64,000 bases of DNA from an uncultured Enterobacteriaceae bacterium (GCA_964393745.1 CAYMVA010000032.1:69943-133942); one strand, 5' to 3'. Counted from the stretch's first letter, positions 40,004 to 62,327 are shown. The notes: generated by a model from the letters alone, not told the origin. Program-made: numbers and translations.

Positions 40004-40438
40004 TCAGTGATTGCTGAGGTCGGCGTTCTCGCCGCTGCCGCCGGGCGTGCCGTCCTTGCCGTACGAGATCAGGTCGAAGTCGCCTTTCTCTCCCGGGGCG
40101 CGGTAAGCGTACGGCTTGCCCCAGGGATCGAGCGGCACGGCTTTCTTGAGATACGGTCCGTTCCATTTCGGCTCGTTCTGCGGGCGCTCCAGCAGCGCGT
40201 TCAGGCCCAATTCGGTGCCCGGATAGCGGCCGGTGTCGAGCCGGTATTGGTCGAGCGCTTTCTCGAAAGCATCGATCTGCGCTTTGGCGGTGTTGACCTC
40301 GGATTTCCCGATCTGGCCGAAATAACGCGGCGCGACGTAGCCCACCAGAAGCCCGATGATCGCGACCACCACAAGCAGCTCGAGCAGCGTGAAACCAGCC
40401 CCCTGTCTGCGCGGCGCGAAACGATTGTTGCGGTGCAC
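40004..40438 (-). CDS. gspG: Major pseudopilin GspG
   Basis: GAGFTLLELLVVVAIIGLL prepilin motif plus a GspG-type body (NGPYLKK...DPWGKPYAYRAPGEKGDFDLISYGKDGTPGG). GTG start. Confidence 0.9.
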   Translation of the reverse strand: MHRNNRFAPRRQGAGFTLLELLVVVAIIGLLVGYVAPRYFGQIGKSEVNTAKAQIDAFEKALDQYRLDTGRYPGTELGLNALLERPQNEPKWNGPYLKKAVPLDPWGKPYAYRAPGEKGDFDLISYGKDGTPGGSGENADLSNH

Positions 40439-40558
40439 AAGCCCCTCTTAAATTCCATGGTAGTTCAAGCAGATCACAATATGACCGTGCGCGCTGCACC
40501 GCGCAAGTGGAGTCCTCCCGCAGGTGCTGCATCGCGCATAGAATGAGACCCTAGGATA

Positions 40559-41527: not shown

Positions 41528-41576
41528 CCGGGCTTGCTCGCATGCCTGAGTTTCATATTCTAGGAGGAGTACCGAC

Positions 41577-43898: not shown

Positions 43899-43967
43899 GC
43901 CGCGCATGAACGACGTTGTCTTAACGCGTATACTGCTTCGGTTGACCAAACCAAGGAGGGTCAGGTC

Positions 43968-44720
43968 ATGAAATCTTCAGTCGCCAAAGTCTTTCTCGGC
44001 GTCGCCACTGCCGTGGCGTTAGTCGTAACCACGGCCACCGCCCAGGATTCGAGGAAACCGTCCGGACAGCCCGATGCCCAAGCGCCGGCGACGGGGTCTG
44101 TTGCATACAAGCCGCCCATGCGGGGCGCACCGCTCACGCGCGTGGGCGGAGGCACCCGCAGCGTAGGTGCCAGCGTCCTGACGCTGAACGTGCTCGCGCC
44201 TGGGGAGACTGGCTACACGATGCAGGAAAAGCCGACCATCTACTGGTATGTGTCGGACACGGTCAACAGCCCGGTGGAGCTGACGATCACCAGCACCGCG
44301 AGCCTGCAGGACGCGGCGACGCCGGCGTTCGAGATCACCCTGAAACCGCCGGTCGCCAAGGGCTTTCACGCATTGCGGCTGGCGGACCATGGCATCGCGC
44401 TCAAGCCCGATGTCGAGTACCAGTGGTTCGTCGCGGTGGTGCGCAACCCCGCGCAGCGCTCGCACGACGTGATTGCCGGCGGCACCATCAAGCGGATCGC
44501 CGACAGCGGTGCGGTCGAGCCCAGGCTCAAGCAGACCTCGCAGGCGCAGTGGGCGGCGGTGTATGCGGAAGCGGGCATCTGGTACGACGCGATCGACCAG
44601 TTGTCGAAGCAGATCAGCGCCGACCCCGCCAATCGCCAGCTGCGCGCGCAACGCGCCGCGCTTCTGGAGCAGGTCGGCTTGCGCGAAGCGGCGGCCTTCG
44701 ACCGCAGCTCCGGGAGCTAG
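43968..44720 (+). CDS. DUF928 family secreted protein
   Basis: Signal peptide, then PPMRGAPLTRVGGGTRS, PTIYWYV, YQWFVAV and AGIWYDAIDQL, as I recall for DUF928. RBS aaggaggg. Confidence 0.75.
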   Translation: MKSSVAKVFLGVATAVALVVTTATAQDSRKPSGQPDAQAPATGSVAYKPPMRGAPLTRVGGGTRSVGASVLTLNVLAPGETGYTMQEKPTIYWYVSDTVNSPVELTITSTASLQDAATPAFEITLKPPVAKGFHALRLADHGIALKPDVEYQWFVAVVRNPAQRSHDVIAGGTIKRIADSGAVEPRLKQTSQAQWAAVYAEAGIWYDAIDQLSKQISADPANRQLRAQRAALLEQVGLREAAAFDRSSGS

Positions 44721-44741
44721 GGAGCCTCCGCTCTAGTCCTG

Positions 44742-46469
44742 CTAACGCAGCCAGCCCGGGCGGAAGTTCAGGCGGAAGTACCAGCTATCGTCCTGCAGGC
44801 TGTGGCTGGGCGGATTGGGCACATCGTTGAGCCCCTTGGCGTAGTAAAGCTCGGCCGAAAATTCGGGGCTCGGGTTCCAGATGAGCCCCAGCCCGACGCC
44901 GGTGAGGTGCGACGGGCTGAGGTTTTCCCTGTCCTTGAACTTTGCGCCCCCGGTATCGACGTACGCCGCAGCCTGCAGGTTGCGCGCTCCGGTCGGGTTA
45001 TCGAAAACGGGGATGCGGTATTCGAGCGACGCCGTGTAGCCGCGGTCGCGCAGCAGTTGGAAGGCGCGATAACCGCGCACGCTATCCAGTCCGCCGACCG
45101 CGTACTGCTCCATCGGCAGCAGGGCGTCGTTGGTGAGCTGGAGGTCGGCGCGCAGGCGAAGCTGGTCGCCGCGCTCGCCCAGGAGCTTGACCCACTGAAA
45201 CTGGCCCAGCCATGACACGAAGCGGCTGTCGGGCGCATCCGAGTGGATGGTAGAGCCGAACGCATCGAGCCCGATGCTCACGGTCGAGCGCACGGCGATC
45301 ACCTGCGTGCGGCCGCGGTCCAGGTAATCCCCCACCAGGCGCAGCGCGGATACGACCGCCTTGCCGTCGACCACCCCCGGCGAGAAGGAAAACGGCACGC
45401 CTAGCAGTGACGATTGGGTTTCGCGCCGCTCGAGCACGCCGGCCAGCACGAGTTGCTCGTTGGGCGTCCGAAATACGGGATGGCTGATCTGCCCGCCGAT
45501 CGTTTCCAGCTTGCTCGTGATGTCCAGCACGTTGAACGGCGACTCCACCACTTCGGCCTTGGTCTTTTCGTAGTGCAGGCCGAGCGCCGTGTCCCTCGCC
45601 GTGATGGGCGTGCGATAGCGCAGCTTGAAGTCGTAGGGAATGCCTTGGGCATAACCGAGCTCGACCCCCAACTGATCCCCTCTGCCGGTCAGGTTGTTCA
45701 TCGACCCGAGCAGCGTCAGCTTCGCTTCGCCCAGGCTCGGCGACATCCTGTTGTCGATCACCGCGCCGATGTCGTAACGGGGCGCCTCCTCGACCTTGGC
45801 CTTGAGCACCGCTTCTCCCGGGCGCTCGCCCGGCACCACCTGGGCGTTCAGGCTCTTTACCATCGGATCGCGCAACAGGATCTGCAGCTTCTGCTCGAGC
45901 TCCGGGATGTTCAGAGGCGGCCCGGCGTGCAGCGCGATGCGGTCGCTGAAATACTCCTTGTCGAAGTGCTCGGTGCCCTCGATCTCCATGCGCGTCAGGC
46001 TGCCCTCGACGATGCGGATTTCGATGACGCCGTCGGCGACCTTCTGGTCGGGGATCACCGCGCCCGAGTTGATGTAGCCCTTGCTGACGTAGTGCGCGGT
46101 CAGGCGCTGGCGCAGCTCTTCGAGGTCAGTATTGCTGATCTCGCGATTCTCGAAGGGCGCGGCGATCTTCTCGAGCTCGCCCTCCGGGAAAACGGTGTTC
46201 CCGGTGATGCGGAACTTGCTCACCCGCACCTGCAGGACGGTCGGCAAGCGATCCGCCTCCGGCGGGCTTATCCGCGGAAGCCTGAGCAGCTCGGGCGGCG
46301 GCTTGAGGAACTCGGGCGCCGGCAGGGGCTGCTGCGAGGGCAGGGTTTGCGAGGGAACTTGCGGAACCTGCGCCCAGACGAAATTCGCCGCGGCATGCGC
46401 GAGGAGCAGCGAAAGGCCCGTTACATACCCGGCGAGATCAGATTTCCTGCAGCCTGTTTTTCGATGCAC
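44742..46469 (-). CDS. Two-partner secretion outer-membrane transporter (TpsB; ShlB/FhaC/HecB family)
   Basis: GTG at 46469 gives 575 aa with signal peptide LSLLLAHAAANFVWAQ. POTRA-like region (FRITGNTVFPEGELE...LRQRLTAHYVSKGYINSGAVIP) and a C-terminal beta-barrel ending in an aromatic-rich segment. The start is inferred. Confidence 0.85.
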   Translation of the reverse strand: MHRKTGCRKSDLAGYVTGLSLLLAHAAANFVWAQVPQVPSQTLPSQQPLPAPEFLKPPPELLRLPRISPPEADRLPTVLQVRVSKFRITGNTVFPEGELEKIAAPFENREISNTDLEELRQRLTAHYVSKGYINSGAVIPDQKVADGVIEIRIVEGSLTRMEIEGTEHFDKEYFSDRIALHAGPPLNIPELEQKLQILLRDPMVKSLNAQVVPGERPGEAVLKAKVEEAPRYDIGAVIDNRMSPSLGEAKLTLLGSMNNLTGRGDQLGVELGYAQGIPYDFKLRYRTPITARDTALGLHYEKTKAEVVESPFNVLDITSKLETIGGQISHPVFRTPNEQLVLAGVLERRETQSSLLGVPFSFSPGVVDGKAVVSALRLVGDYLDRGRTQVIAVRSTVSIGLDAFGSTIHSDAPDSRFVSWLGQFQWVKLLGERGDQLRLRADLQLTNDALLPMEQYAVGGLDSVRGYRAFQLLRDRGYTASLEYRIPVFDNPTGARNLQAAAYVDTGGAKFKDRENLSPSHLTGVGLGLIWNPSPEFSAELYYAKGLNDVPNPPSHSLQDDSWYFRLNFRPGWLR

Positions 46470-46488
46470 TTTGGACGAACCCGCGCCC

Positions 46489-49400
46489 CTAGCGCGAGCA
46501 GTCCCGATAGTCTGCCATAGCCAGCGCGAGCGCGTAACGCGGCCCATCGGGGCCGGCATCGGCCCTGACCGGCCCGCGGGCACCCGCCAGACCGGTGGCG
46601 ACGTCCGAACCGAAACTCGGCAGGTAGCCACCCGCGTCGACCGGGACCCCGCCGCGGCCCGCGACCACGAACGAGCTCGGCGCCCCCGTGCGCCGCGCCG
46701 AGCACAGGCCGCGCAGCTGGCTGCTTGCATCGAGGAACGCCGCCGGCAGTTGCCCGATGCTGCTCTCGACGTTGTTGTCCGGCGATACGATCTGGATCAC
46801 GCCGGGCGTGCTCAAGGCGGACGACGCCTCTATCACGCTGGTTATGCTGGCGAGGAAATTGTCGGCGATGATGGTGATATTGCCGCCCGGGCCGCCGAAC
46901 GCATTGGCGATGATCGAGCTGTTGTTCAGGATGACGAACTGCGGATCGATCAGGATGTTGCCGCCCTGGCCCAGGCCACCCGCGACGCTGGTGCTGATGA
47001 CGCTGTCCTGGAGCTGCACCATGAACGGCGCCTTGAGCGTAATGTTGCCGCCGTCCGCCGTGAGCGCCTGCGTGGTGATCTGGCCGTTGTTGAGATAGAT
47101 CTCGCTGCCCGAGGTGATCGTGACGCTGCCGGCCTCGCCCAAGCCCGACACGATGCTTCCGCCAAGTGGTCCGCCGCTGTCTGCTTTGAGGCGCCCGCCG
47201 TCAAGGATCGCGACCCGGTTGCCGGCGTTCAGCACCACGTCGCCCCCCTTGCCGTCGCCGAAGGTGCTCGTAGAAACCACGCTGTCCTGGCCGGATATAG
47301 TGATGGCGCTGCCAGCGGCGATCCCCACGGTGCCGCCAGCACCGGTGCCCACGGCTACCGCTCCGCCGAGCAACCCGCCGCTCTCGGAAGCGGCCTTGCC
47401 ACCGCTTTGGACGTCGACTTGGTTGGCGCTCAGGGTGACGTTGCCTCCGGCCCCATCGCCGAACGTCGTCGTGGATACCGTGCTGCCCGGACCCGAGATG
47501 TTGATCGCGTTGCCTGCCGAGATCGAGACGCTGCCGCCGCTGCCGGTGCCTACGGCGACGGTTCCACCGAGCAATCCGCCGCTTTCGCCGACGACGCGCC
47601 CGCCGTTCAGGACCGCAACCTGGTTGCCGGCGGTCAGCGTCACGTCACCGCCACTGCCGTCGCCGAATGTGCTCGTGGAGATGGCACTACCCTGGCCAGA
47701 TACTGTAATCGTGTCACTAGCCGAAACCATCACGCTACCGGCGCTGCCCGAGCCGACGCCGATCGAGCCGTCGAGGAACTCGACGCCGCTGCGGCTGCGA
47801 ATGGCACCGCCGTCCAATACCGACAGCGTGCCGACATTGCCCACCACGCTGCCGGCATTGCTTTCCCATCCGGTCGATGTCTCGATCCGCGTGCCGGCGT
47901 TCAGCGTCAACGCTGGCGTCGTGATCGAAACCGCACCGGCGTTACCCGGCGTGAGAGGCGGGTTTGGAATATCCACCCAAAATGGCGCCACATCCGTCGG
48001 AGTGAAAGTTGTCCAGTCAAATCCATGGCTGCGCAGGTAGGCAAGGACCTCCATCAACTTGGCGCTGGGATTTCCCATTTCCGCGCGGAAATCATCGAAG
48101 GTGCGGAAGAACACCGAATTGAATAAATCGTTCAGTTGATCGTCGGGCGGCTGGAAGGTCGCGCCCACGATGCGGGCGTCAGAGCCGGAGAGCGTGATTG
48201 GCCCGCCGGCCGTCAACGTGATGTTGCCCGCATTGCCCGCACCAAAGGTGGTGCTGGTAATACGGCCGCCATCCTTCACCGCGATCGACCCGGCGGCTTT
48301 GATCGTAATGTTGCCCGAATCGCCCGCGAAACTGCTCTGCGAGCCGATCAGCGCGCTCTGCGGATCGCCGGTGCCCGCTACCAGGACACTGCCAGCGTTG
48401 ATCGTAATATCGCCGGCGCGCCCGAAGTTACGGCTATCCGTCGTGATTTGGCCCAGGCCACTGACTGCCAGGCTGTCGCTCGCGTTGATCGTGATGTTCC
48501 CGCTGTTGCCGGTAATGAGTTGGCCTTCCATGCTGCTGAACGGATAGGCCGGATTGCGCAGGCCTTGGGCCGCGAGCCCCTCGAATGCGAATGGGCTGTC
48601 GCTACCGTTACCTGACACGTCCACCTGTCTGGCGTTGATCGTCAGGCTCGGGCCCTCGCCCTCGATGGCGTTAATAAGCACGATCGATCCGCCGCTTCCC
48701 ACACTCACCTTGTCCGCGTTGATAGTGACGTGGCCAGCTTCGCCGGGCGCGTTGCGCTGCACCTGGATGCCCGCGAATCCCGAAATCGACACGGAGCCCG
48801 CGTTGATCGTCACGTCGGGCACCTTGGCGGCTGGCGCGACGTAGTTGCCCAAAGGATCCCCCGTATAGACGAAGATCCCTGGAGGCGCGAACGTCAGCAG
48901 CTCTCTCGCAGAACCAGTGATCGTCACCGCATCGGTTACCTTGATGTTCACCTGCCCGCCGTCCGGCAACGGCGAAAAACCGACGAACGAGAGTTCGAAC
49001 GCAAAGGCCCCGGGCAGCACGACGCCGTCATTGATTGCTAGATTGCCGCCGCGGATGAAGATCTCCTTGCCGTCCACTATGCTGCCAGGCCCGACCTTGA
49101 TGCTTCCCAACTTCGAGAAGCCGTCGACATTGAATCCGACCCCATCGAAAGTCGCTTCCCCAGCAGAAGCGACGCTCACCAGATTGACACGGCCGCCCGG
49201 TGCCACCACGTAGCCCGGTGTGCTGCCGTCCAGGGCGCCGATGCTGACCCCCGGAATATCACTTCCCGGGGCGTTGCCGCCGACCAGCGACAGCGTTTGC
49301 TCTTGCGGCACCATCAGCTGTGCAGCTGGGTAGAAGATGGAGAAGTCGATGCCTCCCGTCTGTACCTCGATTGGCTTGGGATTCGCCGAGAGAAAACCAA

Positions 49401-49923
49401 AAGCCGAGGGCGGTGAGGTCGTGAGCACGGTCGCCTGCGCCGGGTCTGCGTAGAAGATGCCGTCATTGCCAAGCTTGATGTAGTCGGCCGTCGTGGCGTG
49501 AAACGAGCCGCCGACGTCGAGCCGCGCGGTCGGCCCGAAGATGATGCCGGCGGGGTTCATCAGGAACAGATTGGCGGTCCCGAAATCGAGCGTGTTGATG
49601 GTGCCGAAGATGTTCGAGGGGTTTCCGGCCGTGACACGGGCCAAGATGTTCGCGGTGGCCGGGGCAGCGGGACTGTTGAGGAAGTTGGCGCTCTCGCCCG
49701 TGTTCACACTGAAGTTGCCGAAGCTGTGGAACAGATTCGTTCCGCCGCTTGGCCTCGTGCCTCCGGTGATGTTGTAGGTACCCGCCACAGGCTGGTCGAC
49801 CGCCGTACCGAGGCCGCTGGGAGTCACCTGGGCATGGCTGACAGAGGGCAGGCCGCTCGAAGTGCAAAGCAGCGTACCCACCAGCACAGCCTGAAATCTG
49901 CCGCCGCAACGTCGCGTGGTCAT
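46489..49923 (-). CDS. TpsA-type exoprotein with an N-terminal haemagglutination-activity (TPS) domain and a beta-helical passenger
   Basis: Signal peptide, TPS motifs GGTNLFHSFGNFSV and FLMNPAGIIFG, then long Gly/Ser/Thr/Asn beta-helix repeats. 1144 aa. Strong RBS gtgaggag. Confidence 0.88.
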   Translation of the reverse strand: MTTRRCGGRFQAVLVGTLLCTSSGLPSVSHAQVTPSGLGTAVDQPVAGTYNITGGTRPSGGTNLFHSFGNFSVNTGESANFLNSPAAPATANILARVTAGNPSNIFGTINTLDFGTANLFLMNPAGIIFGPTARLDVGGSFHATTADYIKLGNDGIFYADPAQATVLTTSPPSAFGFLSANPKPIEVQTGGIDFSIFYPAAQLMVPQEQTLSLVGGNAPGSDIPGVSIGALDGSTPGYVVAPGGRVNLVSVASAGEATFDGVGFNVDGFSKLGSIKVGPGSIVDGKEIFIRGGNLAINDGVVLPGAFAFELSFVGFSPLPDGGQVNIKVTDAVTITGSARELLTFAPPGIFVYTGDPLGNYVAPAAKVPDVTINAGSVSISGFAGIQVQRNAPGEAGHVTINADKVSVGSGGSIVLINAIEGEGPSLTINARQVDVSGNGSDSPFAFEGLAAQGLRNPAYPFSSMEGQLITGNSGNITINASDSLAVSGLGQITTDSRNFGRAGDITINAGSVLVAGTGDPQSALIGSQSSFAGDSGNITIKAAGSIAVKDGGRITSTTFGAGNAGNITLTAGGPITLSGSDARIVGATFQPPDDQLNDLFNSVFFRTFDDFRAEMGNPSAKLMEVLAYLRSHGFDWTTFTPTDVAPFWVDIPNPPLTPGNAGAVSITTPALTLNAGTRIETSTGWESNAGSVVGNVGTLSVLDGGAIRSRSGVEFLDGSIGVGSGSAGSVMVSASDTITVSGQGSAISTSTFGDGSGGDVTLTAGNQVAVLNGGRVVGESGGLLGGTVAVGTGSGGSVSISAGNAINISGPGSTVSTTTFGDGAGGNVTLSANQVDVQSGGKAASESGGLLGGAVAVGTGAGGTVGIAAGSAITISGQDSVVSTSTFGDGKGGDVVLNAGNRVAILDGGRLKADSGGPLGGSIVSGLGEAGSVTITSGSEIYLNNGQITTQALTADGGNITLKAPFMVQLQDSVISTSVAGGLGQGGNILIDPQFVILNNSSIIANAFGGPGGNITIIADNFLASITSVIEASSALSTPGVIQIVSPDNNVESSIGQLPAAFLDASSQLRGLCSARRTGAPSSFVVAGRGGVPVDAGGYLPSFGSDVATGLAGARGPVRADAGPDGPRYALALAMADYRDCSR
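47137..47745 (-). repeat. Three tandem repeats of about 67 aa (about 200 bp) inside the tpsA coding sequence
   Basis: The units share ISG-x-GS-x-(I/V)STxTFGDGxGG(D/N)V-(10 or 11 aa)-GG-(5 aa)-(E/D)SGG(L/P)LGG, spanning roughly aa 727-929. Confidence 0.6.
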
Positions 49924-49971
49924 AGAGTTCTCCTCACCTGCCCAGGCCCCGCGTTGTCAATGGCACCGCAG

Positions 49972-49998
49972 TCCTGCGCCCCCTTCGGGAGCGCAGGA
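49972..49998 (-). other. Strong stem-loop between the Cys-rich gene and tpsA (intra-operon RNA structure or partial terminator)
   Basis: tcctgcgc (49972..49979) pairs with gcgcagga (49991..49998). There is no U-tract. Confidence 0.4.
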
Positions 49999-50010
49999 TT
50001 CGCTGCTAGG

Positions 50011-51654
50011 TCACCATTGGACGATGCTGATATTGGGGAAATCCGTCGTGAAATCGAACGGAAAACTGCCCGCCGGGTTTTGCACGGTCGTTCCGCTCAA
50101 ATGCAGGGTAACGGTGGGCGGATTCGTGGGATTGTGAACTCGGATGGCCGCCGCCAGCTCCGGACATCTCCGGTACACCAAGCGAAGCCCATACTTCAAG
50201 GGAACGGTGCTGATAACAAAATTCTGAATTGGCGCCTCTATTGGGGCAATGCCTTCGAGCTTCGGCGCTGCGGAAAGGGGCGAGATCAGGATGTCGGTAT
50301 TCGCCAACGAAACCTGATCTGGGATCGTTACTTGGAGTTTGCCCGCGTTGAGGTCGCCGGCGCCCCCGCAGGCGACATTGATGGTGCCTTGATCTATCGT
50401 GGCCAAGATGTCGTTATTACCCAGCTTAATCTTTTCGACGTCCTGGGTGCCCGTGTGGAGCACTTTTTGGGTGGAGGTGATCCCACATATGCGCAACTGA
50501 TTGTCAAACCCTTCGCCAGGACTCGGCAAATCACCAGTGAAGATTCCACCCCCATTGACGAGGTTGGTGTTGTCACTGAACAAGCCGACGTCCGACTGGC
50601 AGTAGCGCGCGTACGCCTCCTTCGGGGTTCCCTTTACGTATGACGTCGGCGGTGATAATTCCGGTAGGGTCGGCAGCCTCGTCGTCGGGTCGCAGGACCC
50701 CACGGTGGAGACTTCCTTATAGACCAGCAGCTGCCCTACCGTCATTGGCTGAATCTGGCCCGAATCCAACGCGTTCGGAACGGAGGCGACACTCGGAAAC
50801 GCGGTATTACACGCAGTGGTGTCGACGACAAACGTGGTGGTCTTGCCTTTCGTCACGTATTTCCCGGGAATCCCGCCGAGCTGCATGGTGCACGCGCCAG
50901 CTTCGAAACGTGTCTGGCTGCAGGGCCCAGTGAAATCGGGTATCGCGGTGGTTATCAGCTCCTTAAGCGTCAGAAAACCTTCCACCTTGACGCCGTTGCC
51001 GCAGGCGAACGTGTAATTAAGCTCGGTCCCAACGACGGGGGGGTTCGAAGAGGAGTCCCTGCAGGTGCGGAGGGCGAAGGCCGTACTCGTGTCGCCCGGT
51101 TTGTGCTTGGGATTCTGCAGGTCCGTAAAGGTGCCGCAGTTGTTGCCGATTCCCGAGTTGGCGTCTTCGCATGCCAACGGAGCGGTGGATTCATATTTGA
51201 CGCTGAAATCGAACTTTCCGCTCCCGTACGGCGCGTCTGCGTGGTGTTCAGGCAGAAATGGTACGGGTGGGCTAGAAGTTCCCGTCTGATTCCACCCACT
51301 GCACGTAGCATAGTTACCCGCTCCGACCACCTCCTGCGTCACCCTGATCGGTTTATTCAAATCACCAGGCACACCCGGTTCGGACGACCACTGGCCTTGG
51401 AATTCCGTCCAAGTACATTTGATAGCCTGTCCGTGGTGGCTGATGTAGGTGATGCTGCCGCCCACGGTCTGGGTGCTGCAGCTGGTGGAAATTTTCGTCC
51501 AGCCAGTAGGGCACACGGCGTTGTTCGTGCAGGCCCTGGCGCCCGTCGAGCTGCGGCAGGTTATCGCGGCGAAGGCATCCTGCACCAGCGATAACCCGAG
51601 CACCGCAAATGCGAAGGCCGAAAGGGATTTAACGAATGAGTAACGGCTGATCAT
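50011..51654 (-). CDS. Orphan secreted cysteine-rich protein (547 aa, 18 Cys); I recognise no family
   Basis: Signal peptide AFAFAVLGLSLVQDAFA and RBS aaggaga. Hand-counted GC is about 52-63% per line, against about 65-72% in neighbouring genes. It is the first gene of the tpsA-tpsB transcription direction. Confidence 0.7.
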   Translation of the reverse strand: MISRYSFVKSLSAFAFAVLGLSLVQDAFAAITCRSSTGARACTNNAVCPTGWTKISTSCSTQTVGGSITYISHHGQAIKCTWTEFQGQWSSEPGVPGDLNKPIRVTQEVVGAGNYATCSGWNQTGTSSPPVPFLPEHHADAPYGSGKFDFSVKYESTAPLACEDANSGIGNNCGTFTDLQNPKHKPGDTSTAFALRTCRDSSSNPPVVGTELNYTFACGNGVKVEGFLTLKELITTAIPDFTGPCSQTRFEAGACTMQLGGIPGKYVTKGKTTTFVVDTTACNTAFPSVASVPNALDSGQIQPMTVGQLLVYKEVSTVGSCDPTTRLPTLPELSPPTSYVKGTPKEAYARYCQSDVGLFSDNTNLVNGGGIFTGDLPSPGEGFDNQLRICGITSTQKVLHTGTQDVEKIKLGNNDILATIDQGTINVACGGAGDLNAGKLQVTIPDQVSLANTDILISPLSAAPKLEGIAPIEAPIQNFVISTVPLKYGLRLVYRRCPELAAAIRVHNPTNPPTVTLHLSGTTVQNPAGSFPFDFTTDFPNISIVQW

Positions 51655-51678
51655 GGCGCCTCTCCTTGACTTCGGAAA

Positions 51679-51706
51679 ATTGCAAGGTATTCAAACTAGT
51701 ATTCAA
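51679..51706 (-). promoter_or_regulatory. Candidate sigma70 promoter for the Cys-rich gene
   Basis: On the minus strand: TTGAAT (51706..51701), a 16-nt spacer, then TGCAAT (51684..51679). It overlaps an 8-bp direct repeat TTGAATAC x2. Confidence 0.3.
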
Positions 51707-51855
51707 GCGGTTCCCCTCCCAGGGGAATTAATGCACCTTATTCCCTTCGTCCGACTGGGTCAAGGGATGCATGACCTAGGACATCCAGCCCGCCGGCACC
51801 CAACCCGGGCTGCTATGCTGCGCCGCGCCACCCCACACTGCGGAGTACCCCCGCC

Positions 51856-52779
51856 TTGTCGCTGCCGCAGGGTCACCTCGTCAAGGGCCTCGGCTGGATC
51901 GCGCTCGCGATCCTGTGCTGGGCGCCGCTGTTCCCGACCGCCAAGCGGGCGCTGCCGTTCGTGGATGCGTTCGCGCTCGGCACGCTGCGCTACGCGATCG
52001 GCACGGTGCTTTTCATAGCGCTGCTGGTCGCGTTCGAGGGGCGGCGGGCGCTGCGCTACGACGGGCGCTTCGTGGCAGCGGCGCTGTTCGGCGTCATCGG
52101 CATCACCGGCTTCAACACTCTCGTTTGGTACGGGCTCACCTACACGCGCCCGGAGCATGGAGCCATCATCATGAGCCTGCAAACGCCGCTCACCGCGCTT
52201 GCTGTGTGGCTGACGCGCGGCCTGCGCCCGGCGCGCTTCACGCAGGCGTGCATCGCGCTGGCGCTTTTCGGCGTGTTCCTGGTGGTCACCAAGGGCAGCC
52301 TTGCGAGCGCGTTCGAGGGCGGCGCGCTCGCCGGCGACCTGGTGATCCTTCTCGGTGCGCTAAGCTGGGTGATCTACACCATCGCCGGGGCGCGCTTCTC
52401 CGGCTGGTCGCCGCTGCGCTTCACCGTGCTCACCTGCCTGCCCGGTGCGGCGGGGCTTTTCATCGTCAATGGCGTCGCAATCGCAGCGGGCATTGCGGTA
52501 GTGCCGAGCGTTGCTGCGGTCGCCGAGATCGGCTGGCAGATCGCCTATTTCGCGGTCTGCACCGTGGTGCTCGGTGTGCTGGGCTTCAATTTCGCGGTGA
52601 AGTATCTCGGCGCGCTCAACACCATGCTGATGCTCAATCTGATCCCGGTGTCGGTGTTCGTGATCGAGGCGGTGCTCGGGCGCCAATTCGCCGCCATCGA
52701 GATCGCCGGCGGCGCGGTGGTGATCGGCGCGCTGGTCGCCAACAACCTCTATCTGCGCCAGGTCAGCGCGCGGGCGTGA
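51856..52779 (+). CDS. EamA/DMT-family transporter
   Basis: Ten-TM-like profile, 307 aa, TTG start. The last 4 codons lie inside direct repeat DR-A. Confidence 0.8.
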   Translation: MSLPQGHLVKGLGWIALAILCWAPLFPTAKRALPFVDAFALGTLRYAIGTVLFIALLVAFEGRRALRYDGRFVAAALFGVIGITGFNTLVWYGLTYTRPEHGAIIMSLQTPLTALAVWLTRGLRPARFTQACIALALFGVFLVVTKGSLASAFEGGALAGDLVILLGALSWVIYTIAGARFSGWSPLRFTVLTCLPGAAGLFIVNGVAIAAGIAVVPSVAAVAEIGWQIAYFAVCTVVLGVLGFNFAVKYLGALNTMLMLNLIPVSVFVIEAVLGRQFAAIEIAGGAVVIGALVANNLYLRQVSARA

Positions 52780-52805
52780 GCCTGAGCAGCTTGTGCGGCT
52801 GCGCT
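52768..52805 (+). repeat. 38-bp perfect direct repeat, copy A
   Basis: gcgcgggcgtgagcctgagcagcttgtgcggctgcgct is identical to 54779..54816. Confidence 0.95.
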
Positions 52806-54778
52806 GCAGAATGTGATCGCATGTATGATCAATCGCCCGATCCGGAGCGCGTGCAGTGATTGCCAAGTGGCTTGAATGGCTGCGCAAGCCGACGCCTGTC
52901 AGCCTTGCGCTGGGATTTGCCGCGACCCTTCTTGTCATCGGTCTGCGCAGCGCGGGATTTCTTCAGTTCGTCGAGCTGGCGACTTACGACGCCTACCTGC
53001 GCGTGAAAGAGCACCAGAGTGTGCCGGAACCGCGCATCGTGCTGGTGCAAACGGTCGAGGAAGACATCCAGAAGCTCGGCGAGTGGCCGATCTCCGACCG
53101 CCGCATGGCCGAGGTGTTGAAGAAAGTTCTGGCCAGCAACCCGCGCGCTGTAGGCGTGGATCTGTATCGCGATATCCCGGTGCCGCCCGGCAGTGACGAA
53201 TTGAGCGCCTTGCTGACCGGCGACAAGCGCGTCATCTTCATCGAGAAGTTTGGCAAGGACAGCAGCAAGCGTGTCGCGGGTCCCGCCGCCTTGCGTGGCA
53301 CCGAGCGGATCGGATTTTCGGATGTCACCCCTGACGACGACGGGGTGGTGCGCCGCGGGCTGCTGTTTCTGGATGACGGCAAGACCTCGTCAACGTCGCT
53401 TGCGTTGCGCCTTGCGCTCGCCTACCTGGCCGAAGAAGGCGTCACACCACAGCCCGATGCCGACGACCCGACGCACATCCGCCTCGGCCGGGTGACGCTA
53501 CGGCCGTTCGAGGCGGACGACGGGGGCTACGTCGGCGCGGATGCTCAGGGGTATCAATATCTGCTCGATTTCCGGGGTGGCGCGCAGCGTTTCAAGACTT
53601 ACTCGCTAAGCGAGGTGTTGGAAGGCCGCGTGGAGCCGAATTTGATCAAGGGCAGCGTCGTAATTTTCGGGGTCAATGCAGAAAGCGTGAAGGACGAGTT
53701 CCTGACACCGTTCGACCGTTTCACCCGGCGCGGCCACGCCACCGCGGGAATTGCCGTGCACGGCTACGAGGTTAGCCAGCTCATTCGCGGCGCCCTGCAA
53801 GGCGACGTGCCCATACGGTTCCTGAGTGACCGTTTCGAAAACCTGTGGATCTTGCTCTGGAGCCTCGCCGCCGCGATGGTGGGAAAGTTTGCGCGCAGCA
53901 CCGTGCGCTTTTCGCTGTCCACGGCGGCCGGGCTGCTCCTTCTCGTAGGCGCGACCCTGTTCGCGTTCCTCGAGCACTGGTGGCTGCCGGTCGCGCCGGC
54001 CGCCATCGTCTGGCTGGGTTCGGCGGGCCTGGTGACTGCATTCCTCTCCGGGCACGAGCGGCAGGAGAAGAAGTTCCTGATGGATCTGTTCTCCAGAAGC
54101 GTCTCGCCGGCGATCGCCGACGAGATGTGGAAACAGCGCGCCAGTTTCATCAAGGGCGGCAGGCTCGAGCCGCAGACGATGACCGTCACGATCCTGTTTT
54201 CGGATCTGGCGGGCTTCACCACGGTTTCGGAACGCCTGACCCCCGCGCAACTGATGGACTGGCTGAACCAGTACATGGAAACCATGGCGGGATTGGTGAT
54301 CAAGCACGGCGGGGTGGTGGATGACTATTATGGCGATGCGATCAAGGCCAACTTCGGCGTGCCCTTGCCTCGCACCAGCGCCGAGGAAATCCGCCAGGAC
54401 GCCGCCAACGCCATGCGCTGTGCCTTGGACATGCGGCGGGAAATGGAACAGCTGGTCGCATCCTGGTCCGCCCAAGGCGCGCCGCTGGTCAAGGTGCGCG
54501 TAGGCATTGCCACGGGGCCGGTGGTGGCGGGCTGCCTCGGCAGCGCGCAGCGGATGAAGTACACAACCATCGGCGACGTCGTCAATACGGCCGCGCGGCT
54601 CGAGAGCTACGGCAAGGAGATTCCCGAGCACCTGGTCAATCCCTATTGCCAGGTCATGGTGGCAGCCTCGACGGTGGCGCAACTCGATGGCGAGTTCAAG
54701 CTCGAGCCGATCGGGACCCTGCAGCTGAAAGGCAAGACACAGGGCGTGGACGTGTTTGCCCTGCTCGGTACTAAAGAG
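52806..54778 (+). other. Putative inserted segment (1973 bp) carrying the cyclase gene, bounded by the 38-bp direct repeats
   Basis: It lies exactly between DR-A and DR-B. Hand-counted GC is lower, about 48-62% per line. The cyclase ORF has no stop of its own and terminates inside DR-B. Confidence 0.6.
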
Positions 54779-54790
54779 GCGCGGGCGTGA
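52856..54790 (+). CDS. CHASE2 sensor domain - class III adenylate/guanylate cyclase
   Basis: N-terminal TM helix, a periplasmic CHASE2-like region, a TM cluster, and a cyclase domain (VTILFSDLAGFTTVSE...YYGDAIKANFG...TTIGDVVNTAARLE). GTG start. Confidence 0.88.
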   Translation: MIAKWLEWLRKPTPVSLALGFAATLLVIGLRSAGFLQFVELATYDAYLRVKEHQSVPEPRIVLVQTVEEDIQKLGEWPISDRRMAEVLKKVLASNPRAVGVDLYRDIPVPPGSDELSALLTGDKRVIFIEKFGKDSSKRVAGPAALRGTERIGFSDVTPDDDGVVRRGLLFLDDGKTSSTSLALRLALAYLAEEGVTPQPDADDPTHIRLGRVTLRPFEADDGGYVGADAQGYQYLLDFRGGAQRFKTYSLSEVLEGRVEPNLIKGSVVIFGVNAESVKDEFLTPFDRFTRRGHATAGIAVHGYEVSQLIRGALQGDVPIRFLSDRFENLWILLWSLAAAMVGKFARSTVRFSLSTAAGLLLLVGATLFAFLEHWWLPVAPAAIVWLGSAGLVTAFLSGHERQEKKFLMDLFSRSVSPAIADEMWKQRASFIKGGRLEPQTMTVTILFSDLAGFTTVSERLTPAQLMDWLNQYMETMAGLVIKHGGVVDDYYGDAIKANFGVPLPRTSAEEIRQDAANAMRCALDMRREMEQLVASWSAQGAPLVKVRVGIATGPVVAGCLGSAQRMKYTTIGDVVNTAARLESYGKEIPEHLVNPYCQVMVAASTVAQLDGEFKLEPIGTLQLKGKTQGVDVFALLGTKEARA

Positions 54791-57185
54791 GCCTGAGCAG
54801 CTTGTGCGGCTGCGCTTCGAGCGTCTTGCGCGCGGTCACCATCTGGATGTACTCGCCCTTCGCCCAGGCCTCGGTGAACGCCTCGTAGTGCGGCGACAGC
54901 AGGTTGCCCGACTGGCCGCCGGAGTGGATGTAGAGGGATTTCTCGAGGTCAGAGAGGTCGTAAATCGCGCGCAGGCTGGCGGCGTGGCGGTTGGCGAAGG
55001 GCTGCGCCTCGTCGTTGAAATTGTTGCGCCCTACGTTCACCGTGTAGACGTCGCCCGGCGTGGGCACGCGGATGTCGAAGGCGCGCGCGAGCAGCGGCTG
55101 CCGGCTGAAGGGCCGGTGCTCGTGGCGCGCGACGTGCGCCTCGCCCCAGCGCCAACCTGACGAATCCTCCCCGTAGCGCTGGCGCAGGTCGGCGAGCGCC
55201 GCTTCAAGGGATAGCGCAAGCAGCTCCTCGCAGGTCTCTATGGCGGGCGTGCGCACGTCGTCGCACCAACGCGCTTGCTCGCGATCGCCCGAGATCGCCT
55301 TGGCGACGAAAGTCGCGCGCGCGAGCCAGTTGCTGCGGAACGCATCGCCCAGCTCGTCGGCGTAGAGCGCGCGTGTCAATTCGCGCCACCAGCCCCAGGC
55401 GATCAGCGGCTCAGGCCGCCCCGGCGCCATCTCGCCATCCCATTTCGCCAGTTGCGCGAGCGCGCGGCGCGCCTCTTCGCTCCTTGGGCGGGTGGCGAGC
55501 AGCCGCGGCAACGACTCGCGCATCGCGAGCGACACCACGTCGCCCTGCATGCGCGCGAAGCTCGCGACGTTGTGCTTCGGCGTTGCGTCGAGCAGCGCAC
55601 GGATGCGGTCGGCGCGGTAGGGCGACTGCCATTCGGCGCTGATGAAGTGCGGGTAGCCGGGTGGCGTGATCTTGTGATTTGCCGTGTGCAGCTCGCCGCT
55701 CGCTGGGTTGTAGGCGCGCGGCAGGGCATCGAAGGGCAGGTAGCCGTCCCAGTCGTATTTCGCCAGCCAGCCAGGCGCGGGCGCAAGGCCTTTCAGATCG
55801 TTATCGGGCTTTCTCAGCGGCACGCGACCCGCGGCGACAAAGCCGATGTTGCCCTCGATATCGGCGTACACCATGTTCTGCTGCGGGGTGTGGAAGTCGC
55901 GCACCGCGGCGAGGAACCCTTCCCAGTCCCGGGCGCGCGCGAGCTTGAGCGCCGCCTGCGGCGTGAGATCGTCCTCGAGCAGCGCGGTCCAGGCGAAAGC
56001 GAGCACGTGTCCGCGCGGCGCCACGTCCTGCGCCGGGCGCAGCACGTCGGACACGATGGGGCCGTGGCGCGAGACGCGGATCCGCAGCCGCTCGGGCTCG
56101 GCGCCCTTCACGTGGATTGTTTCCTCGATTACCTGGAAGGCGCGCGGGCCCTCGGGCGTCATGTAATTGCCGGCGTTGTCCAGCTTCTCGATGTACAGGT
56201 CCTGCACGTCGGGGCCGGTGTTGGTGAAGCCCCAGGCGAAACGATCGCTGCGGCCGAGCACGATCGCCGGCATCCCGGGCAGCGAGGCGCCGATCAGGTT
56301 GGCTCCGGCGACCGAAAGGTGCGCGAAGTACCACACCGGCGGCGCGGTGAGGCTTAGGTGCGGATCGTTGGCGAGCAGCGGCTTGCCGCTTACGGTGCGA
56401 GCGCCGGAAACCACCCAGTTATTCGAGCCGATGCCTTCCGGTTGCACGCCCGGGGCGAGCTCGGCGAGGCGGATGCCGTCCTCGGCGAGCTGCACGCCTT
56501 CGCGCTCGAGCGCGCCATAGAGCGTTTTCAGGTCGGCGATCTCGGGCGGCGCCTCGCCCGGATAGGGCGCGACGAATTCCTGGATGCGCGCCAGCGGCAG
56601 CGTCTTCGCCAGGCGCATGCGCAGCACTTCGTTGCGCCAGTTGCCGCCCAGGTCCCAGGCCATCATCTTCATCCACGCCACCGAGTCGGCGGGCGTCCAG
56701 GGCTCGGGCTGCGTGCCGGTGATCCAGAATTCGGGCGGCAGCACAGGCGCCGAAGCGAGGAACGCATTGATGCCGGCAGCGTAGGCCCCGAGCATGCGGC
56801 GCGTCTCGGCGTCGAACGCGCGCAGGTTCGCCTCCGCCGCGCGCCGCACGCCGAGCGTGCGCAGGAAGCGGTCGGTTTCGAGCGCGCCTTTGCCCACCAC
56901 CTCGGCAAGCCGCCCGGCGGCGATGCGCCGGTTCATCTCCAATTGCCAGAGCCGGTCCTGCGCGTGCACGTAGCCGAGCGCGAAACTCGCGTCCTCGTAG
57001 GTCGCGGCGAATATGTGAGGCACGCCGTAGCGGTCGCGCAGCACCTCTACAGGCGCCGAGAGCCCGGCAAGCCGCACCTCGCCCTCGACCTCGGGCAGCG
57101 ATTGCCGCAGATACAGGTACCCGCCTGCAACGGCGAGCACAGCAAGCCCCAACACCACAACCAGCAGCCGGGCGAGCACCCTCAT
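54771..57185 (-). CDS. Penicillin acylase family Ntn-hydrolase (possible acyl-homoserine-lactone acylase)
   Basis: The ATG at 57185 gives signal/TM MRVLARLLVVVLGLAVLAVAGG. The Ntn nucleophile context is GIGSNNWVVSG. The 16 codons upstream of 57185 are encoded by repeat family A and are discarded. Confidence 0.9.
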   Translation of the reverse strand: MRVLARLLVVVLGLAVLAVAGGYLYLRQSLPEVEGEVRLAGLSAPVEVLRDRYGVPHIFAATYEDASFALGYVHAQDRLWQLEMNRRIAAGRLAEVVGKGALETDRFLRTLGVRRAAEANLRAFDAETRRMLGAYAAGINAFLASAPVLPPEFWITGTQPEPWTPADSVAWMKMMAWDLGGNWRNEVLRMRLAKTLPLARIQEFVAPYPGEAPPEIADLKTLYGALEREGVQLAEDGIRLAELAPGVQPEGIGSNNWVVSGARTVSGKPLLANDPHLSLTAPPVWYFAHLSVAGANLIGASLPGMPAIVLGRSDRFAWGFTNTGPDVQDLYIEKLDNAGNYMTPEGPRAFQVIEETIHVKGAEPERLRIRVSRHGPIVSDVLRPAQDVAPRGHVLAFAWTALLEDDLTPQAALKLARARDWEGFLAAVRDFHTPQQNMVYADIEGNIGFVAAGRVPLRKPDNDLKGLAPAPGWLAKYDWDGYLPFDALPRAYNPASGELHTANHKITPPGYPHFISAEWQSPYRADRIRALLDATPKHNVASFARMQGDVVSLAMRESLPRLLATRPRSEEARRALAQLAKWDGEMAPGRPEPLIAWGWWRELTRALYADELGDAFRSNWLARATFVAKAISGDREQARWCDDVRTPAIETCEELLALSLEAALADLRQRYGEDSSGWRWGEAHVARHEHRPFSRQPLLARAFDIRVPTPGDVYTVNVGRNNFNDEAQPFANRHAASLRAIYDLSDLEKSLYIHSGGQSGNLLSPHYEAFTEAWAKGEYIQMVTARKTLEAQPHKLLRLTPAPL
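54779..54816 (+). repeat. 38-bp perfect direct repeat, copy B
   Basis: Identical to 52768..52805. It contains the cyclase stop codon and encodes most of the last 15 codons of the acylase on the other strand. Confidence 0.95.
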
Positions 57186-57200
57186 ACGTTCAAGAATACC

Positions 57201-57336
57201 GAAAATCGGGGACAGAGCCCGATTTCCAGACAATCGGGGTCAGAGCCCGATTTCGGTTCGGTAAATCGCTTTGTGCGATTTTGCGCAAAATCGCCCCGGG
57301 CGATTTGCCCGAAATCGGGCTCTGTCCCCGATTTTC
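57201..57336. repeat. Repeat family A cluster (nested hairpins)
   Basis: gaaaatcggggacagagccc, caatcggggtcagagccc, internal aaatcgc/gcgattt hairpins, and the inverted unit gggctctgtccccgattttc. Confidence 0.8.
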
Positions 57337-58611: not shown

Positions 58612-58710
58612 GAAAATCGGGAAAATCGGGGACAGACCCCGGAAAATCGGGGACAGACCCCGGTTCTTCTTTGCCTGGGGTCTGTCCCCGATTTTCCGTC
58701 CCCGATTTTC
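58612..58710. repeat. Repeat family A cluster (two forward units, spacer, inverted units)
   Basis: gaaaatcggggacagaccccg x2, then ggggtctgtccccgattttc plus gtccccgattttc. Confidence 0.85.
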
Positions 58711-58714
58711 CGAA

Positions 58715-58735
58715 GTGTAAAGCGTGACTTTACAC
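58715..58735. repeat. AT-rich palindrome, repeat family B
   Basis: gtgtaaagcgtgactttacac has 8-bp arms and a 5-nt loop. It matches 30579..30597. Confidence 0.6.
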
Positions 58736-58797
58736 TTTGGGCCGCCGGGGCCGCGGCACTTTCGCGCCGCGGCTGGCAAGGATCTCGATCCGGGCGA

Positions 58798-60651: not shown

Positions 60652-60737
60652 GGAAATCGGGAAAATCGGGGACAGACCCCAAGCGAGAAAACCGGGGTCT
60701 GTCCCCAACGAGAACCGGGGTCTGTCCCCGATCTTCC
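60652..60737. repeat. Repeat family A element (MITE-like)
   Basis: ggaaatcgg gaaaatcggggacagacccc aagcgagaaaacc ggggtctgtcccc aacgagaacc ggggtctgtccccgatcttcc. Confidence 0.85.
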
Positions 60738-62239: not shown

Positions 62240-62253
62240 AGAGAGGATTGGCG

Positions 62254-62327
62254 GAAATCGGGGACAGACCCCAAGCGAGAGAACCGGGGTCTGTCCCCGA
62301 TTTCCGGGGTCTGTCCCCGATTTTTTT
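62254..62327. repeat. Repeat family A element (MITE-like), same spacer as 60652..60737
   Basis: ggaaatcggggacagacccc aagcgagagaacc ggggtctgtccccgatttcc ggggtctgtccccgattttt. Confidence 0.85.

What the first reader, a model, noticed from the sequence alone, without database searches (positions are those of the whole stretch)
52768..54816. CHASE2-cyclase gene inserted between convergent genes, flanked by perfect 38-bp direct repeats that supply its stop codon
The 38-mer gcgcgggcgtgagcctgagcagcttgtgcggctgcgct occurs at 52768..52805 and 54779..54816, 2011 bp apart.
- Copy A contains the EamA stop codon.
- Copy B contains the cyclase stop, so both proteins end in ARA-stop.
- On the other strand, copy B encodes the acylase C-terminus AQPHKLLRLTPA.
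- Read on the minus strand, copy A still encodes AQPHKLLRLTPAR followed by a stop at 52765..52763.

This is what the acylase end would look like if EamA and the acylase were originally convergent and overlapping. The 1973-bp segment between the repeats has lower hand-counted GC, carries only the cyclase ORF plus 50 bp of upstream DNA, and has no transposase or inverted repeats. A 38-bp duplication is far longer than typical IS target-site duplications, which points to an unusual insertion mechanism.
Basis: seen in the sequence. Interest (0 to 1): 0.68.

Follow-up and report, generated by a model that had tools for sequence, protein, structure and literature searches.

The report
Cyclase gene relocated across its neighbour
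A signalling-enzyme gene has been moved about 1 kb from its usual place beside a secretion-gene cluster into the overlapping ends of two neighbouring genes, leaving a 38-base duplicated scar; this looks like an ordinary error-prone DNA rearrangement, not a new kind of mobile element.

Summary
A perfect 38-mer lies at 52768-52805 and 54779-54816. It flanks a 1973-bp segment that holds only a CHASE2 adenylate/guanylate cyclase gene and 50 bp of leader.

Relatives confirm an insertion. Three contigs 84-91% identical to the window (L082, L094, L091) and several outgroup species have one copy of the 38-mer region, with EamA and the acylase directly convergent.

The filled junction (acylase ending PAPL*) recurs in three other, diverged assemblies. 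So it is real and inherited.

The gene is not foreign. It is the usual last gene of the CHAT-DUF928-ShlB-TPS-orf5xx cluster, which lies just upstream of EamA in the window. In relatives L083, L092 and L093 the same cyclase, with its full C-terminus, sits between that cluster and EamA. The window has therefore swapped the order of cyclase and EamA.

Both junctions fall in short homologies: about 8-9 nt (inferred from homologues) on the right and 1-2 nt on the left. There is no transposase, no integrase, no inverted repeats, and no flanking repeats around homologues.

Best reading: a single microhomology-guided rearrangement, either template switching or duplication followed by loss. Interest is modest.

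The parts
41577..51654 (.). CHAT-TPR (41577-43898 +), DUF928 (43968-44720 +), ShlB/POTRA_2 (44742-46730 -), TPS-domain exoprotein (46489-49923 -) and orf547 (50011-51654 -). This is the cluster whose usual last gene is the CHASE2 cyclase.
   Evidence: Pfam hits. The same cluster has the cyclase directly next to orf5xx (one cNMP-binding gene between them in L087-L089) in L083, L086, L087-L089 and L090.
51680..51855 (.). Conserved upstream region of EamA ('e'). Its left border is a breakpoint shared with relatives.
   Evidence: Homology with L082, L094 and L084 starts at about 51680-51685. A different minus-strand gene abuts this border in each genome.
51856..52779 (+). EamA/DMT transporter gene. 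It is core, and is syntenic with the acylase and PHB depolymerase in all relatives.
   Evidence: Pfam PF00892; synteny.
52768..52805 (+). 38-mer copy A: the last three EamA codons plus the stop, then 26 nt that are now intergenic.
   Evidence: It is homologous to the single copy in L082, L094 and L091.
52806..52855 (+). 50-bp cyclase leader moved together with the gene. It holds the conserved motif TGCAGAATGTGATCGCATGT (52805-52824) and the ribosome-binding site GGAG (52844-52847).
   Evidence: The motif is conserved upstream of the cyclase homologues L083, L085, L086 and L090, and more weakly in L084 and L087. Read directly from the sequence.
52856..54790 (+). CHASE2 adenylate/guanylate cyclase, 644 aa. 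Its native C-terminal tail is replaced by ARA* from copy B.
   Evidence: Pfam PF05226 + PF00211. Most homologues are about 640-665 aa and have their own tails. dN/dS is 0.10-0.14 against L083, L084 and L085.
54779..54816 (+). 38-mer copy B. It carries the cyclase stop on the + strand and acylase residues AQPHKLLRLTPA on the - strand. Its first 9 nt (54779-54787) are the right-junction microhomology.
   Evidence: Native cyclases continue GAG-GCGCGAGCG (L083) or GAG-GCGCGGCGG (L085) at this point.
54771..57185 (-). Penicillin-amidase-family acylase. Its C-terminus is changed from ...PAR* to ...PAPL*, with the new stop (54771-54773) taken from cyclase sequence.
   Evidence: Pfam PF01804. C-termini compared.

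Best explanation
**What it is.** The CHASE2 cyclase is the usual terminal gene of the CHAT-DUF928-ShlB-TPS-orf5xx cluster, which lies just upstream of EamA.

**What happened.** In an ancestor of this genome the cyclase sat between that cluster and EamA, as it still does in relatives L083, L092 and L093. One recombinase-independent, microhomology-guided rearrangement then placed the cyclase ORF, with 50 bp of its own leader, on the other side of EamA. It landed in the short region where EamA and the convergent acylase overlap.

**Possible routes.**
- A replication template-switching event.
- A tandem duplication of the cyclase-EamA unit, followed by loss of the first cyclase copy and the second EamA copy.

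**The 38-mer.** It is native target sequence present on both sides of the insert. Its right edge is the point where the copy left the EamA/acylase region and joined the cyclase leader (1-2 nt shared). Its left edge is where the cyclase 3' end, GAG-GCGCG(A/G)GCG, rejoined GCGCGGGCG at the end of EamA.

**Consequences.**
- EamA is unchanged.
- The cyclase lost its variable native tail and ends with the borrowed ARA-stop.
- The acylase changed from R* to PL*.
- The cyclase kept its conserved leader motif and remains under purifying selection.

**Shown:** the empty site, the native origin of the 38-mer, the canonical cluster, the swapped order in relatives, and inheritance of the junction in a small clade.

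**Inferred:** the ancestral order in this particular lineage and the molecular mechanism.
For: **Empty sites**
- L082 is about 90% nt identical to the window. L082 1-3023 matches window 57789-54779, and L082 2987-4105 matches window 52804-51680. It has a single 38-mer (37/38) and no cyclase.
- L094 and L091 are the same.
- Outgroups L003, L004, L006, L008 and L019 have overlapping or abutting convergent EamA and acylase.

**Canonical cluster**
- The cyclase is directly next to orf5xx (one cNMP-binding gene between them in L087-L089) and the TPS/ShlB/DUF928/CHAT genes in L083, L086, L087-L089 and L090.
- The window has the same cluster at 41.6-51.65 kb without a cyclase, and only one cyclase copy overall.

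**Swapped order**
- L083 5994-7974 matches window 52804-54787, and L083 8031-8954 matches window 51850-52773.
- L093 has cyclase, then EamA, then the acylase.
- These cyclases keep native tails...EARAESPVAHAG* and ...ETQAEKARAESLA*.

**Composition and divergence**
- Cyclase GC3 is 0.81. Cluster genes are 0.80-0.85 (orf547 0.71). Core genes are 0.88-0.94.
- Cyclase divergence from the L083/L092/L093 lineages (84-88% nt) is similar to that of EamA and the acylase (84-87%).

**Junctions**
- Both junctions lie in microhomologies.
- No flanking repeat of 10 nt or more surrounds the cyclase in L083-L086 or L090; L087 has only an 11-nt leader-motif match.
- There is no integrase or transposase in 31.8-51.7 kb and no bounding inverted repeats.

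**Junction is real and inherited**
- Acylases P0246, P0243 and P0244 come from other assemblies and are 93.6-97.3% identical. They also end PAPL*.
- A tree from 250 aa is compatible with one origin.
- Logan contig L081 reproduces the insert and both junctions.

**Function and precedent**
- Cyclase dN/dS is 0.10-0.14.
- Microhomology-mediated duplications and deletions are frequent in bacteria (PMC3411829; PMC6614815).
Against: - No relative shows the exact postulated precursor (cluster, cyclase, complete EamA upstream region, EamA, acylase). In L083, L092 and L093 only about 45 bp of the EamA upstream region remain, whereas the window has all 175 bp. At least one more event, or a more complex single event, is needed.
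- The window's closest core relatives (L082, L094) lack the whole cluster. The cluster may have arrived by recombination from another lineage, and the cyclase could have been placed separately.
- The left edge of the insert coincides, to within 2 nt, with the start of the conserved leader motif. That would also fit a cassette with a defined end.
- L084, which carries the closest cyclase homologue, has a decayed EamA 5' end just upstream of the cyclase. This scenario does not explain that.
- The microhomology argument uses homologues as stand-ins for the unknown donor sequence.
Confidence: 0.6

Rival explanations
1. The cyclase was captured independently. A linear cyclase fragment, from another strain or another locus, was ligated into a staggered double-strand break (two nicks about 38 nt apart, filled in) at the EamA/acylase overlap. 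This could occur by end joining or by homology-facilitated illegitimate recombination. It would be unrelated to the neighbouring cluster's own cyclase.
For: - The sister lineages L082 and L094 lack both the cluster and the cyclase.
- The closest cyclase homologues (L084 at 89% nt, L085 at 87% nt) sit in other contexts.
- GC is lower than in the flanking genes.
- Filling in a staggered break would explain a true 38-bp target duplication in one step.
Against: - The window's cluster lacks exactly the gene that has been inserted 1.1 kb away.
- Cyclase GC3 equals that of the cluster.
- Relatives have the cyclase adjacent to the same EamA.
- The right junction lies in an 8-9 nt similarity. Blunt ligation after fill-in does not predict that.
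Confidence: 0.17
2. The segment is a non-autonomous integrative cassette. The 38-mer would be an att-like core, recombined by an integrase or an unknown enzyme encoded elsewhere. The cassette could then excise as a 2011-bp circle and reintegrate.
For: - Perfect direct repeats reconstitute the 3' ends of the interrupted genes, as island att sites do at tRNA genes.
- The insert has a sharp left end at the start of a conserved motif.
- The k=31 Logan graph cannot distinguish an integrated copy from a circle.
Against: - The 38-mer is native target sequence, present once in the empty sites. It is poorly conserved between species, so it is not a plausible conserved att site.
- It was found nowhere else: only two copies in the window, and one metagenome hit, which is the empty site.
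- No homologue locus has comparable flanking repeats: none of 10 nt or more in L083-L086 or L090, and only an 11-nt leader-motif match in L087.
- No recombinase gene lies in 31.8-59 kb.
- The cyclase's native tail is truncated, whereas a cassette would carry a complete gene.
- The 38-mer has no notable secondary structure.
Confidence: 0.06
3. The filled arrangement is ancestral, and the 'empty' sites are secondary deletions caused by recombination between the two 38-mers.
For: Recombination between the repeats would regenerate the ...PAR* empty site exactly. Filled and empty lineages are about equally diverged.
Against: - Every outgroup species lacks the cyclase at this site.
- Empty sites carry C at position 38, while both window copies carry T.
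- Cyclases elsewhere have native C-terminal tails that cannot derive from the truncated window form.
Confidence: 0.04
4. It is an assembly artefact: a mis-join through a 38-bp repeat in a metagenome assembly.
For: The window probably comes from a metagenome-assembled contig of 141,811 bp. Also, 38 equals k-1 for k=39.
Against: - The junction-specific acylase C-terminus PAPL* is present in three other, non-identical assemblies.
- An independent k=31 assembly contains both junction sequences.
Confidence: 0.03

Closest known systems
Microhomology-mediated illegitimate recombination in bacteria (spontaneous tandem duplications and deletions; template switching of the FoSTeS/MMBIR type)
   Same: - Junctions lie in short direct homologies (about 8-9 nt and 1-2 nt).
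- No element-encoded enzyme or terminal repeats.
- The result is a short duplication at the breakpoints, with loss of the sequences between switch points.
- Such events are frequent in bacterial populations (PMC3411829; PMC6614815).
   Different: The outcome here is a fixed, inherited swap of two adjacent functional genes that leaves three ORFs intact. It is not a transient amplification or a simple deletion. The mechanism is inferred from junction sequences only.
Gene-order change by tandem duplication and random loss (classic for mitochondrial genomes; from my own knowledge)
   Same: Two neighbouring units (cyclase, EamA) end up in reversed order and the same orientation. A leftover of the duplicated segment end (the 38-mer) remains.
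   Different: - No intermediate with two copies was found.
- In bacteria a 3-kb tandem duplication usually collapses by homologous recombination before differential loss can occur.
Target-site duplications of IS elements and transposons
   Same: Direct repeats of target sequence flank an inserted segment.
   Different: - Those duplications are typically 2-14 bp.
- The element has terminal inverted repeats and a transposase, and occurs at many sites. None of this holds here.
Integrative islands or cis-mobilisable elements with att direct repeats that restore the 3' end of the target gene (for example tRNA genes; from my own knowledge)
   Same: Perfect direct repeats rebuild the 3' ends of the interrupted genes.
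   Different: - No integrase, and no conserved att site.
- The repeat is lineage-specific target sequence.
- The cargo gene is truncated.
- No second integration site is known.
CHASE2-sensor nucleotide cyclases encoded beside DUF928, CHAT and TPS/ShlB genes
   Same: The domain architecture is CHASE2 + Guanylate_cyc, with the same gene neighbourhood. A CHASE2-DUF928 neighbourhood is reported in Nostoc (PMC5587647).
   Different: In the window EamA separates the cyclase from its cluster. The function of the cluster is unknown.

Membership tests
IS/transposon insertion | Transposase gene inside or near the element | tested here: not met
   The insert holds only the cyclase ORF and a 50-bp leader. 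The genes examined between 28.9 and 58.6 kb gave no transposase or integrase Pfam hit.
IS/transposon insertion | Terminal inverted repeats at the element ends | tested here: not met
   The repeat finder reports no inverted pair bounding 52806-54778.
IS/transposon insertion | Multiple copies or sites with the same ends and a short (2-14 bp) target duplication | tested here: not met
   The window has a single copy. No comparable flanking repeats surround the homologues: none of 10 nt or more in L083-L086 or L090, and an 11-nt leader-motif match in L087. The duplication is 27-38 bp.
Site-specific integrative element (att repeats, tyrosine or serine recombinase; CIME) | Recombinase encoded in the element or nearby | tested here: not met
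   Pfam scans of neighbouring genes found none. A recombinase elsewhere in the genome cannot be excluded.
Site-specific integrative element (att repeats, tyrosine or serine recombinase; CIME) | A conserved att core shared by the element and many target genomes | tested here: not met
   The 38-mer region diverges quickly between species. The exact 26-nt core was found only once in the metagenome collection, at an empty site.
Site-specific integrative element (att repeats, tyrosine or serine recombinase; CIME) | An excised circular form and an empty site within the same population | not testable with these tools
   This needs read-level data. The k=31 contig L081 is compatible with either topology.
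Microhomology-mediated illegitimate recombination / template switching | Short sequence identity between donor and target at each novel junction | tested here: inconclusive
   - Right junction: the homologues' consensus GCGCGAGCG against the target GCGCGGGCG (8 of 9), plus a nearby shared GAGCC.
- Left junction: 1-2 nt (CT).
- The donor sequence itself is unknown, so homologues serve as proxies.
Microhomology-mediated illegitimate recombination / template switching | Donor and target lie close together on the same replicon | tested here: met
   The canonical cyclase position (next to orf5xx, upstream of EamA) is about 1.1 kb from the insertion point. Relatives L083, L092 and L093 still have the cyclase there.
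Microhomology-mediated illegitimate recombination / template switching | Independence from RecA and from element-encoded enzymes | not testable with these tools
   This requires genetics.
CHASE2 adenylate/guanylate cyclase (protein family) | An N-terminal CHASE2 sensor domain and a C-terminal class III cyclase domain, both above Pfam gathering scores | tested here: met
   PF05226 scores 185.6 bits (cut-off 26.3). PF00211 scores 90.6 bits (cut-off 21.9).
CHAT-DUF928-ShlB-TPS-CHASE2 gene cluster | The cyclase lies next to orf5xx/TPS/ShlB with DUF928 and CHAT genes, across several genomes | tested here: met
   L083, L086, L087-L089 and L090 all show it. In L087-L089 one cNMP-binding gene lies between orf5xx and the cyclase. 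In the window every member is present, but EamA lies between orf547 and the cyclase.

The most novel reading that the evidence does not exclude
The cyclase with its 50-bp leader could be a discrete, non-autonomous gene cassette with a defined left end at the conserved TGCAGAAT... motif. An unknown enzyme acting in trans would move it by making cuts staggered by about 38 nt. The repeats could then support reversible excision as a 2011-bp circle, switching the cyclase in and out of the chromosome.
Probability: 0.05. Interest if true: 0.75.

Novelty: new member of a known kind. Interest (0 to 1): 0.3.

Why it matters
- It is a very clean natural example of a bacterial gene crossing its neighbour without any mobile-element machinery. 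The empty site, the original arrangement and the derived arrangement are all still visible in relatives.
- Two convergent genes with overlapping ends can accept an insertion. A short duplication lets all three ORFs survive: EamA is unchanged, the acylase keeps its end apart from the last residue, and the incoming gene takes its stop codon from the duplicate.
- It is a caution for annotation. Low GC together with long flanking direct repeats looks like horizontal transfer by a novel element, but here it is a local reshuffle.
- It does not open a long-standing question. The biological role of the CHAT-DUF928-TPS-CHASE2 cluster remains the more interesting unknown.

Tried and rejected
- **Dispersed repeat.** Rejected. 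There are only two copies in the window even with 3 mismatches. A 26-nt core gave one hit in the metagenome collection, and that hit is an empty site.
- **Paralogous donor in the window.** None found by blastn or tblastn.
- **Structured or terminator role for the 38-mer.** RNA folds are no better than shuffles (z = 0.4-1.0). No promoter-like or terminator-like sites lie at the junctions.
- **Flanking repeats around cyclase homologues, or around genes inserted at the same junction in other species (L001, L002, L009).** None of note.
- **Mobile-element genes in the 20-kb accessory region.** None. It holds type II secretion/pilus genes and the cluster.
- **Exact-protein look-up of EamA and the acylase.** The look-ups for EamA and the window's acylase returned nothing at first. 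The cluster-member look-up later supplied the informative C-termini.
- **Contexts of L084 and L085.** These could not be tied to anything else by blastn or tblastx. The EamA 5' remnant upstream of the L084 cyclase stays unexplained.
- **dN/dS for the acylase.** It failed because of a frame error in my script. That value should be ignored.
- DNA of the other filled-site contigs (P0246, P0243, P0244) could not be fetched.

Full report
**Observation.** The 38-mer GCGCGGGCGTGAGCCTGAGCAGCTTGTGCGGCTGCGCT is present at 52768-52805 and 54779-54816. It occurs nowhere else in the window, even with three mismatches, and none is expected by chance.
- EamA, 51856-52779 (+)
- A CHASE2 + class III cyclase, 52856-54790 (+)
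- A penicillin-amidase-family acylase, 54771-57185 (-)

Copy A holds the EamA stop and copy B holds the cyclase stop. The minus strand of copy B encodes the acylase tail AQPHKLLRLTPA, followed by PL*. The 1973-bp insert has lower GC than its flanks: 0.636 against 0.677 and 0.693. No inverted repeats bound it.

**Empty sites.** The window belongs to an uncultured Burkholderiales-like betaproteobacterium. The best species-level relatives reach 83% aa identity in the acylase. The synteny PHB depolymerase - acylase - EamA is conserved.
- In L003, L004, L006, L008 and L019, EamA and the acylase are directly convergent and overlapping or abutting, with no cyclase.
- A metagenome contig about 90% identical to the window (L082) has one copy of the 38-mer (37/38). 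The left flank of copy A lies on one side of it and the right flank of copy B on the other.
- L094 and L091 are further empty sites.
- Their acylases end ...LTPAR*, which is what the minus strand of copy A still encodes.

The 38-mer is therefore native target sequence, and the cyclase segment is an insertion.

**Reality and age of the insertion.**
- The cyclase protein is recorded on an NCBI contig of 141,811 bp. An independent k=31 assembly of SRR9952630 (L081) equals window 52776-54808 and breaks inside both repeats.
- Three acylases from other assemblies (P0246, P0243, P0244) are 93.6-97.3% identical to the window's. They also end ...PAPL*. That ending can only be read across the cyclase/38-mer junction.
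- P0242 and P0245 end ...PAR*.
- A neighbour-joining tree of the shared 250 residues is compatible with a single origin of the filled state.

The junction is not an assembly artefact, and it has been inherited through several percent of protein divergence.

**Origin of the gene.** The cyclase has close homologues, mostly about 640-665 aa long. On longer contigs it is directly next to an orf5xx gene (with one cNMP-binding gene between them in L087-L089), together with a TPS-domain exoprotein, ShlB, DUF928 and a CHAT-TPR protein (L083, L086, L087-L089, L090).

The window carries this same cluster at 41.6-51.65 kb, ending 200 bp upstream of EamA. It has no cyclase next to orf547 and only one cyclase copy overall.

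In L083 the order is cluster - cyclase - EamA:
- L083 5994-7974 matches window 52804-54787.
- L083 8031-8954 matches window 51850-52773.

L092 and L093 have the same order, and L093 continues into the acylase. These cyclases keep their own C-terminal tails.

Two further points argue against a foreign origin. Cyclase GC3 (0.81) equals that of the cluster genes (0.80-0.85) and not that of the core genes (0.88-0.94). Its divergence from those lineages is similar to that of EamA and the acylase. The window has swapped the order of the cyclase and EamA.

**Junctions.**
- Right junction. Native cyclases continue after ...GAG with GCGCGAGCG-GAGAGCC (L083), GCGCGGCGG (L085) or ACGCGAGCG (L087). The target reads GCGCGGGCG-TGAGCC. 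The junction therefore lies in an 8-9 nt near-identity.
- Left junction. Native leaders read ...CTGCAGAATG and the target reads ...GCTGCGC(C/T), giving 1-2 shared nt.
- All close empty sites (L082, L094, L091) have C at position 38, where both window copies have T. The certain duplication is therefore 27-38 nt.
- No other cyclase locus has comparable flanking repeats: none of 10 nt or more in L083-L086 or L090, and only an 11-nt leader-motif match in L087.
- No recombinase or transposase gene lies nearby.
- The 38-mer has no special fold.

**Mechanism (inferred).** The pattern island - core - island - core, with three novel joints, fits two routes:
- One replication event with several template switches.
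- A tandem duplication of the cyclase-EamA unit, followed by microhomology-mediated loss of the first cyclase and the second EamA.

In both, the 38-mer is simply the stretch between two independent breakpoints. It is not the footprint of a staggered cut. Microhomology-mediated duplications and deletions are common in bacteria (PMC3411829; PMC6614815).

The relocated gene kept its conserved leader motif (52805-52824) and its ribosome-binding site. It is under purifying selection, with dN/dS 0.10-0.14.

**Weak points.**
- The exact precursor was not found. The relatives with cyclase before EamA retain only about 45 bp of the EamA upstream region, while the window has all 175 bp.
- The nearest core relatives lack the cluster altogether.
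- L084 carries an unexplained EamA 5' remnant upstream of the closest cyclase homologue.
- Independent capture of a cyclase fragment at a staggered break therefore remains a real alternative, at about 0.17.
- A dedicated cassette mechanism is unlikely, at about 0.05.

**Verdict.** The insertion reading is supported. The idea of an unusual mechanism is not. This is a well-documented local gene relocation by illegitimate recombination: a new example of a known kind, of modest interest.

Noticed in passing
window 14776-14800, 18692-18721, 57194-57336, 58614-58661, 60654-60732, 62246-62321: A family of REP-like palindromic units (AAATCGGGGACAGACCCC / GGGGTCTGTCCCC) lies in intergenic gaps. Similar units fill the EamA/acylase gap in relatives L012, L013 and L042.
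   Followed up: no
window about 31900-51680: A 20-kb accessory segment holds a pilin-like gene, a secretin, T2SSE and T2SSF genes, a cohesin-domain protein, and then the CHAT-DUF928-ShlB-TPS-orf547 cluster. It is absent from the outgroups, where EamA abuts the AMP-binding enzyme gene (homologue of window 28874-30538) or a DUF4143 ATPase gene.
   Followed up: partly
window 50011-51654 (-): orf547 has the lowest GC in the region (0.578), has no Pfam hit, and is only 31% identical to its positional counterpart in L083. It looks like a hypervariable partner of the TPS protein.
   Followed up: partly
window 52805-52824; L083, L085, L086 and L090 upstream of the cyclase: The leader motif TGCAGAAT(G/C)(T/C)GATCGCATGT is conserved 30-50 nt upstream of the cyclase start in L083, L085, L086 and L090, and is recognisable in weaker form in L084 and L087. 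It is probably an operator or promoter element. L087 repeats part of it downstream of the gene.
   Followed up: no
L084 964-1220: The contig with the closest cyclase homologue (89% nt) carries the EamA upstream region and a decayed EamA 5' end (about 26 codons, with a stop) just upstream of the cyclase leader. Its 69% identity fits neutral decay. How it arose is unexplained.
   Followed up: partly
L085 913-3126: In this homologue the cyclase is fused in frame to a C-terminal PilZ domain (737 aa). The fusion starts at about the point where the window's cyclase is truncated.
   Followed up: no
L002 8420-9103, L009 8454-9554, L001 2516-2782: Other species have different single genes or spacers in the same EamA/acylase gap: a HAD hydrolase in L002, an Amidohydro_2 protein in L009, and 268 bp in L001. 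None has flanking repeats. This junction seems to accept insertions repeatedly.
   Followed up: partly
window about 51680; L082 about 4105; L094 about 2232; L084 about 965: The left border of the conserved EamA upstream region is a shared breakpoint. Unrelated minus-strand genes abut it: orf547 in the window, DUF7948 in L082 and L091, an M12-like peptidase in L094, and a 274-aa ORF in L084. This suggests a hotspot for gene replacement.
   Followed up: partly
L083 8968-9286: In L083 the EamA gene has a different C-terminus and is followed by a ribbon-helix-helix gene instead of the acylase. L093 has the same cyclase-EamA order but keeps the acylase.
   Followed up: no
window 12279-12305, 30574-30600, 58711-58737: The palindrome TGTAAAG-N5-CTTTACA is repeated in three intergenic places. 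It may be a regulator-binding site (family D14).
   Followed up: no
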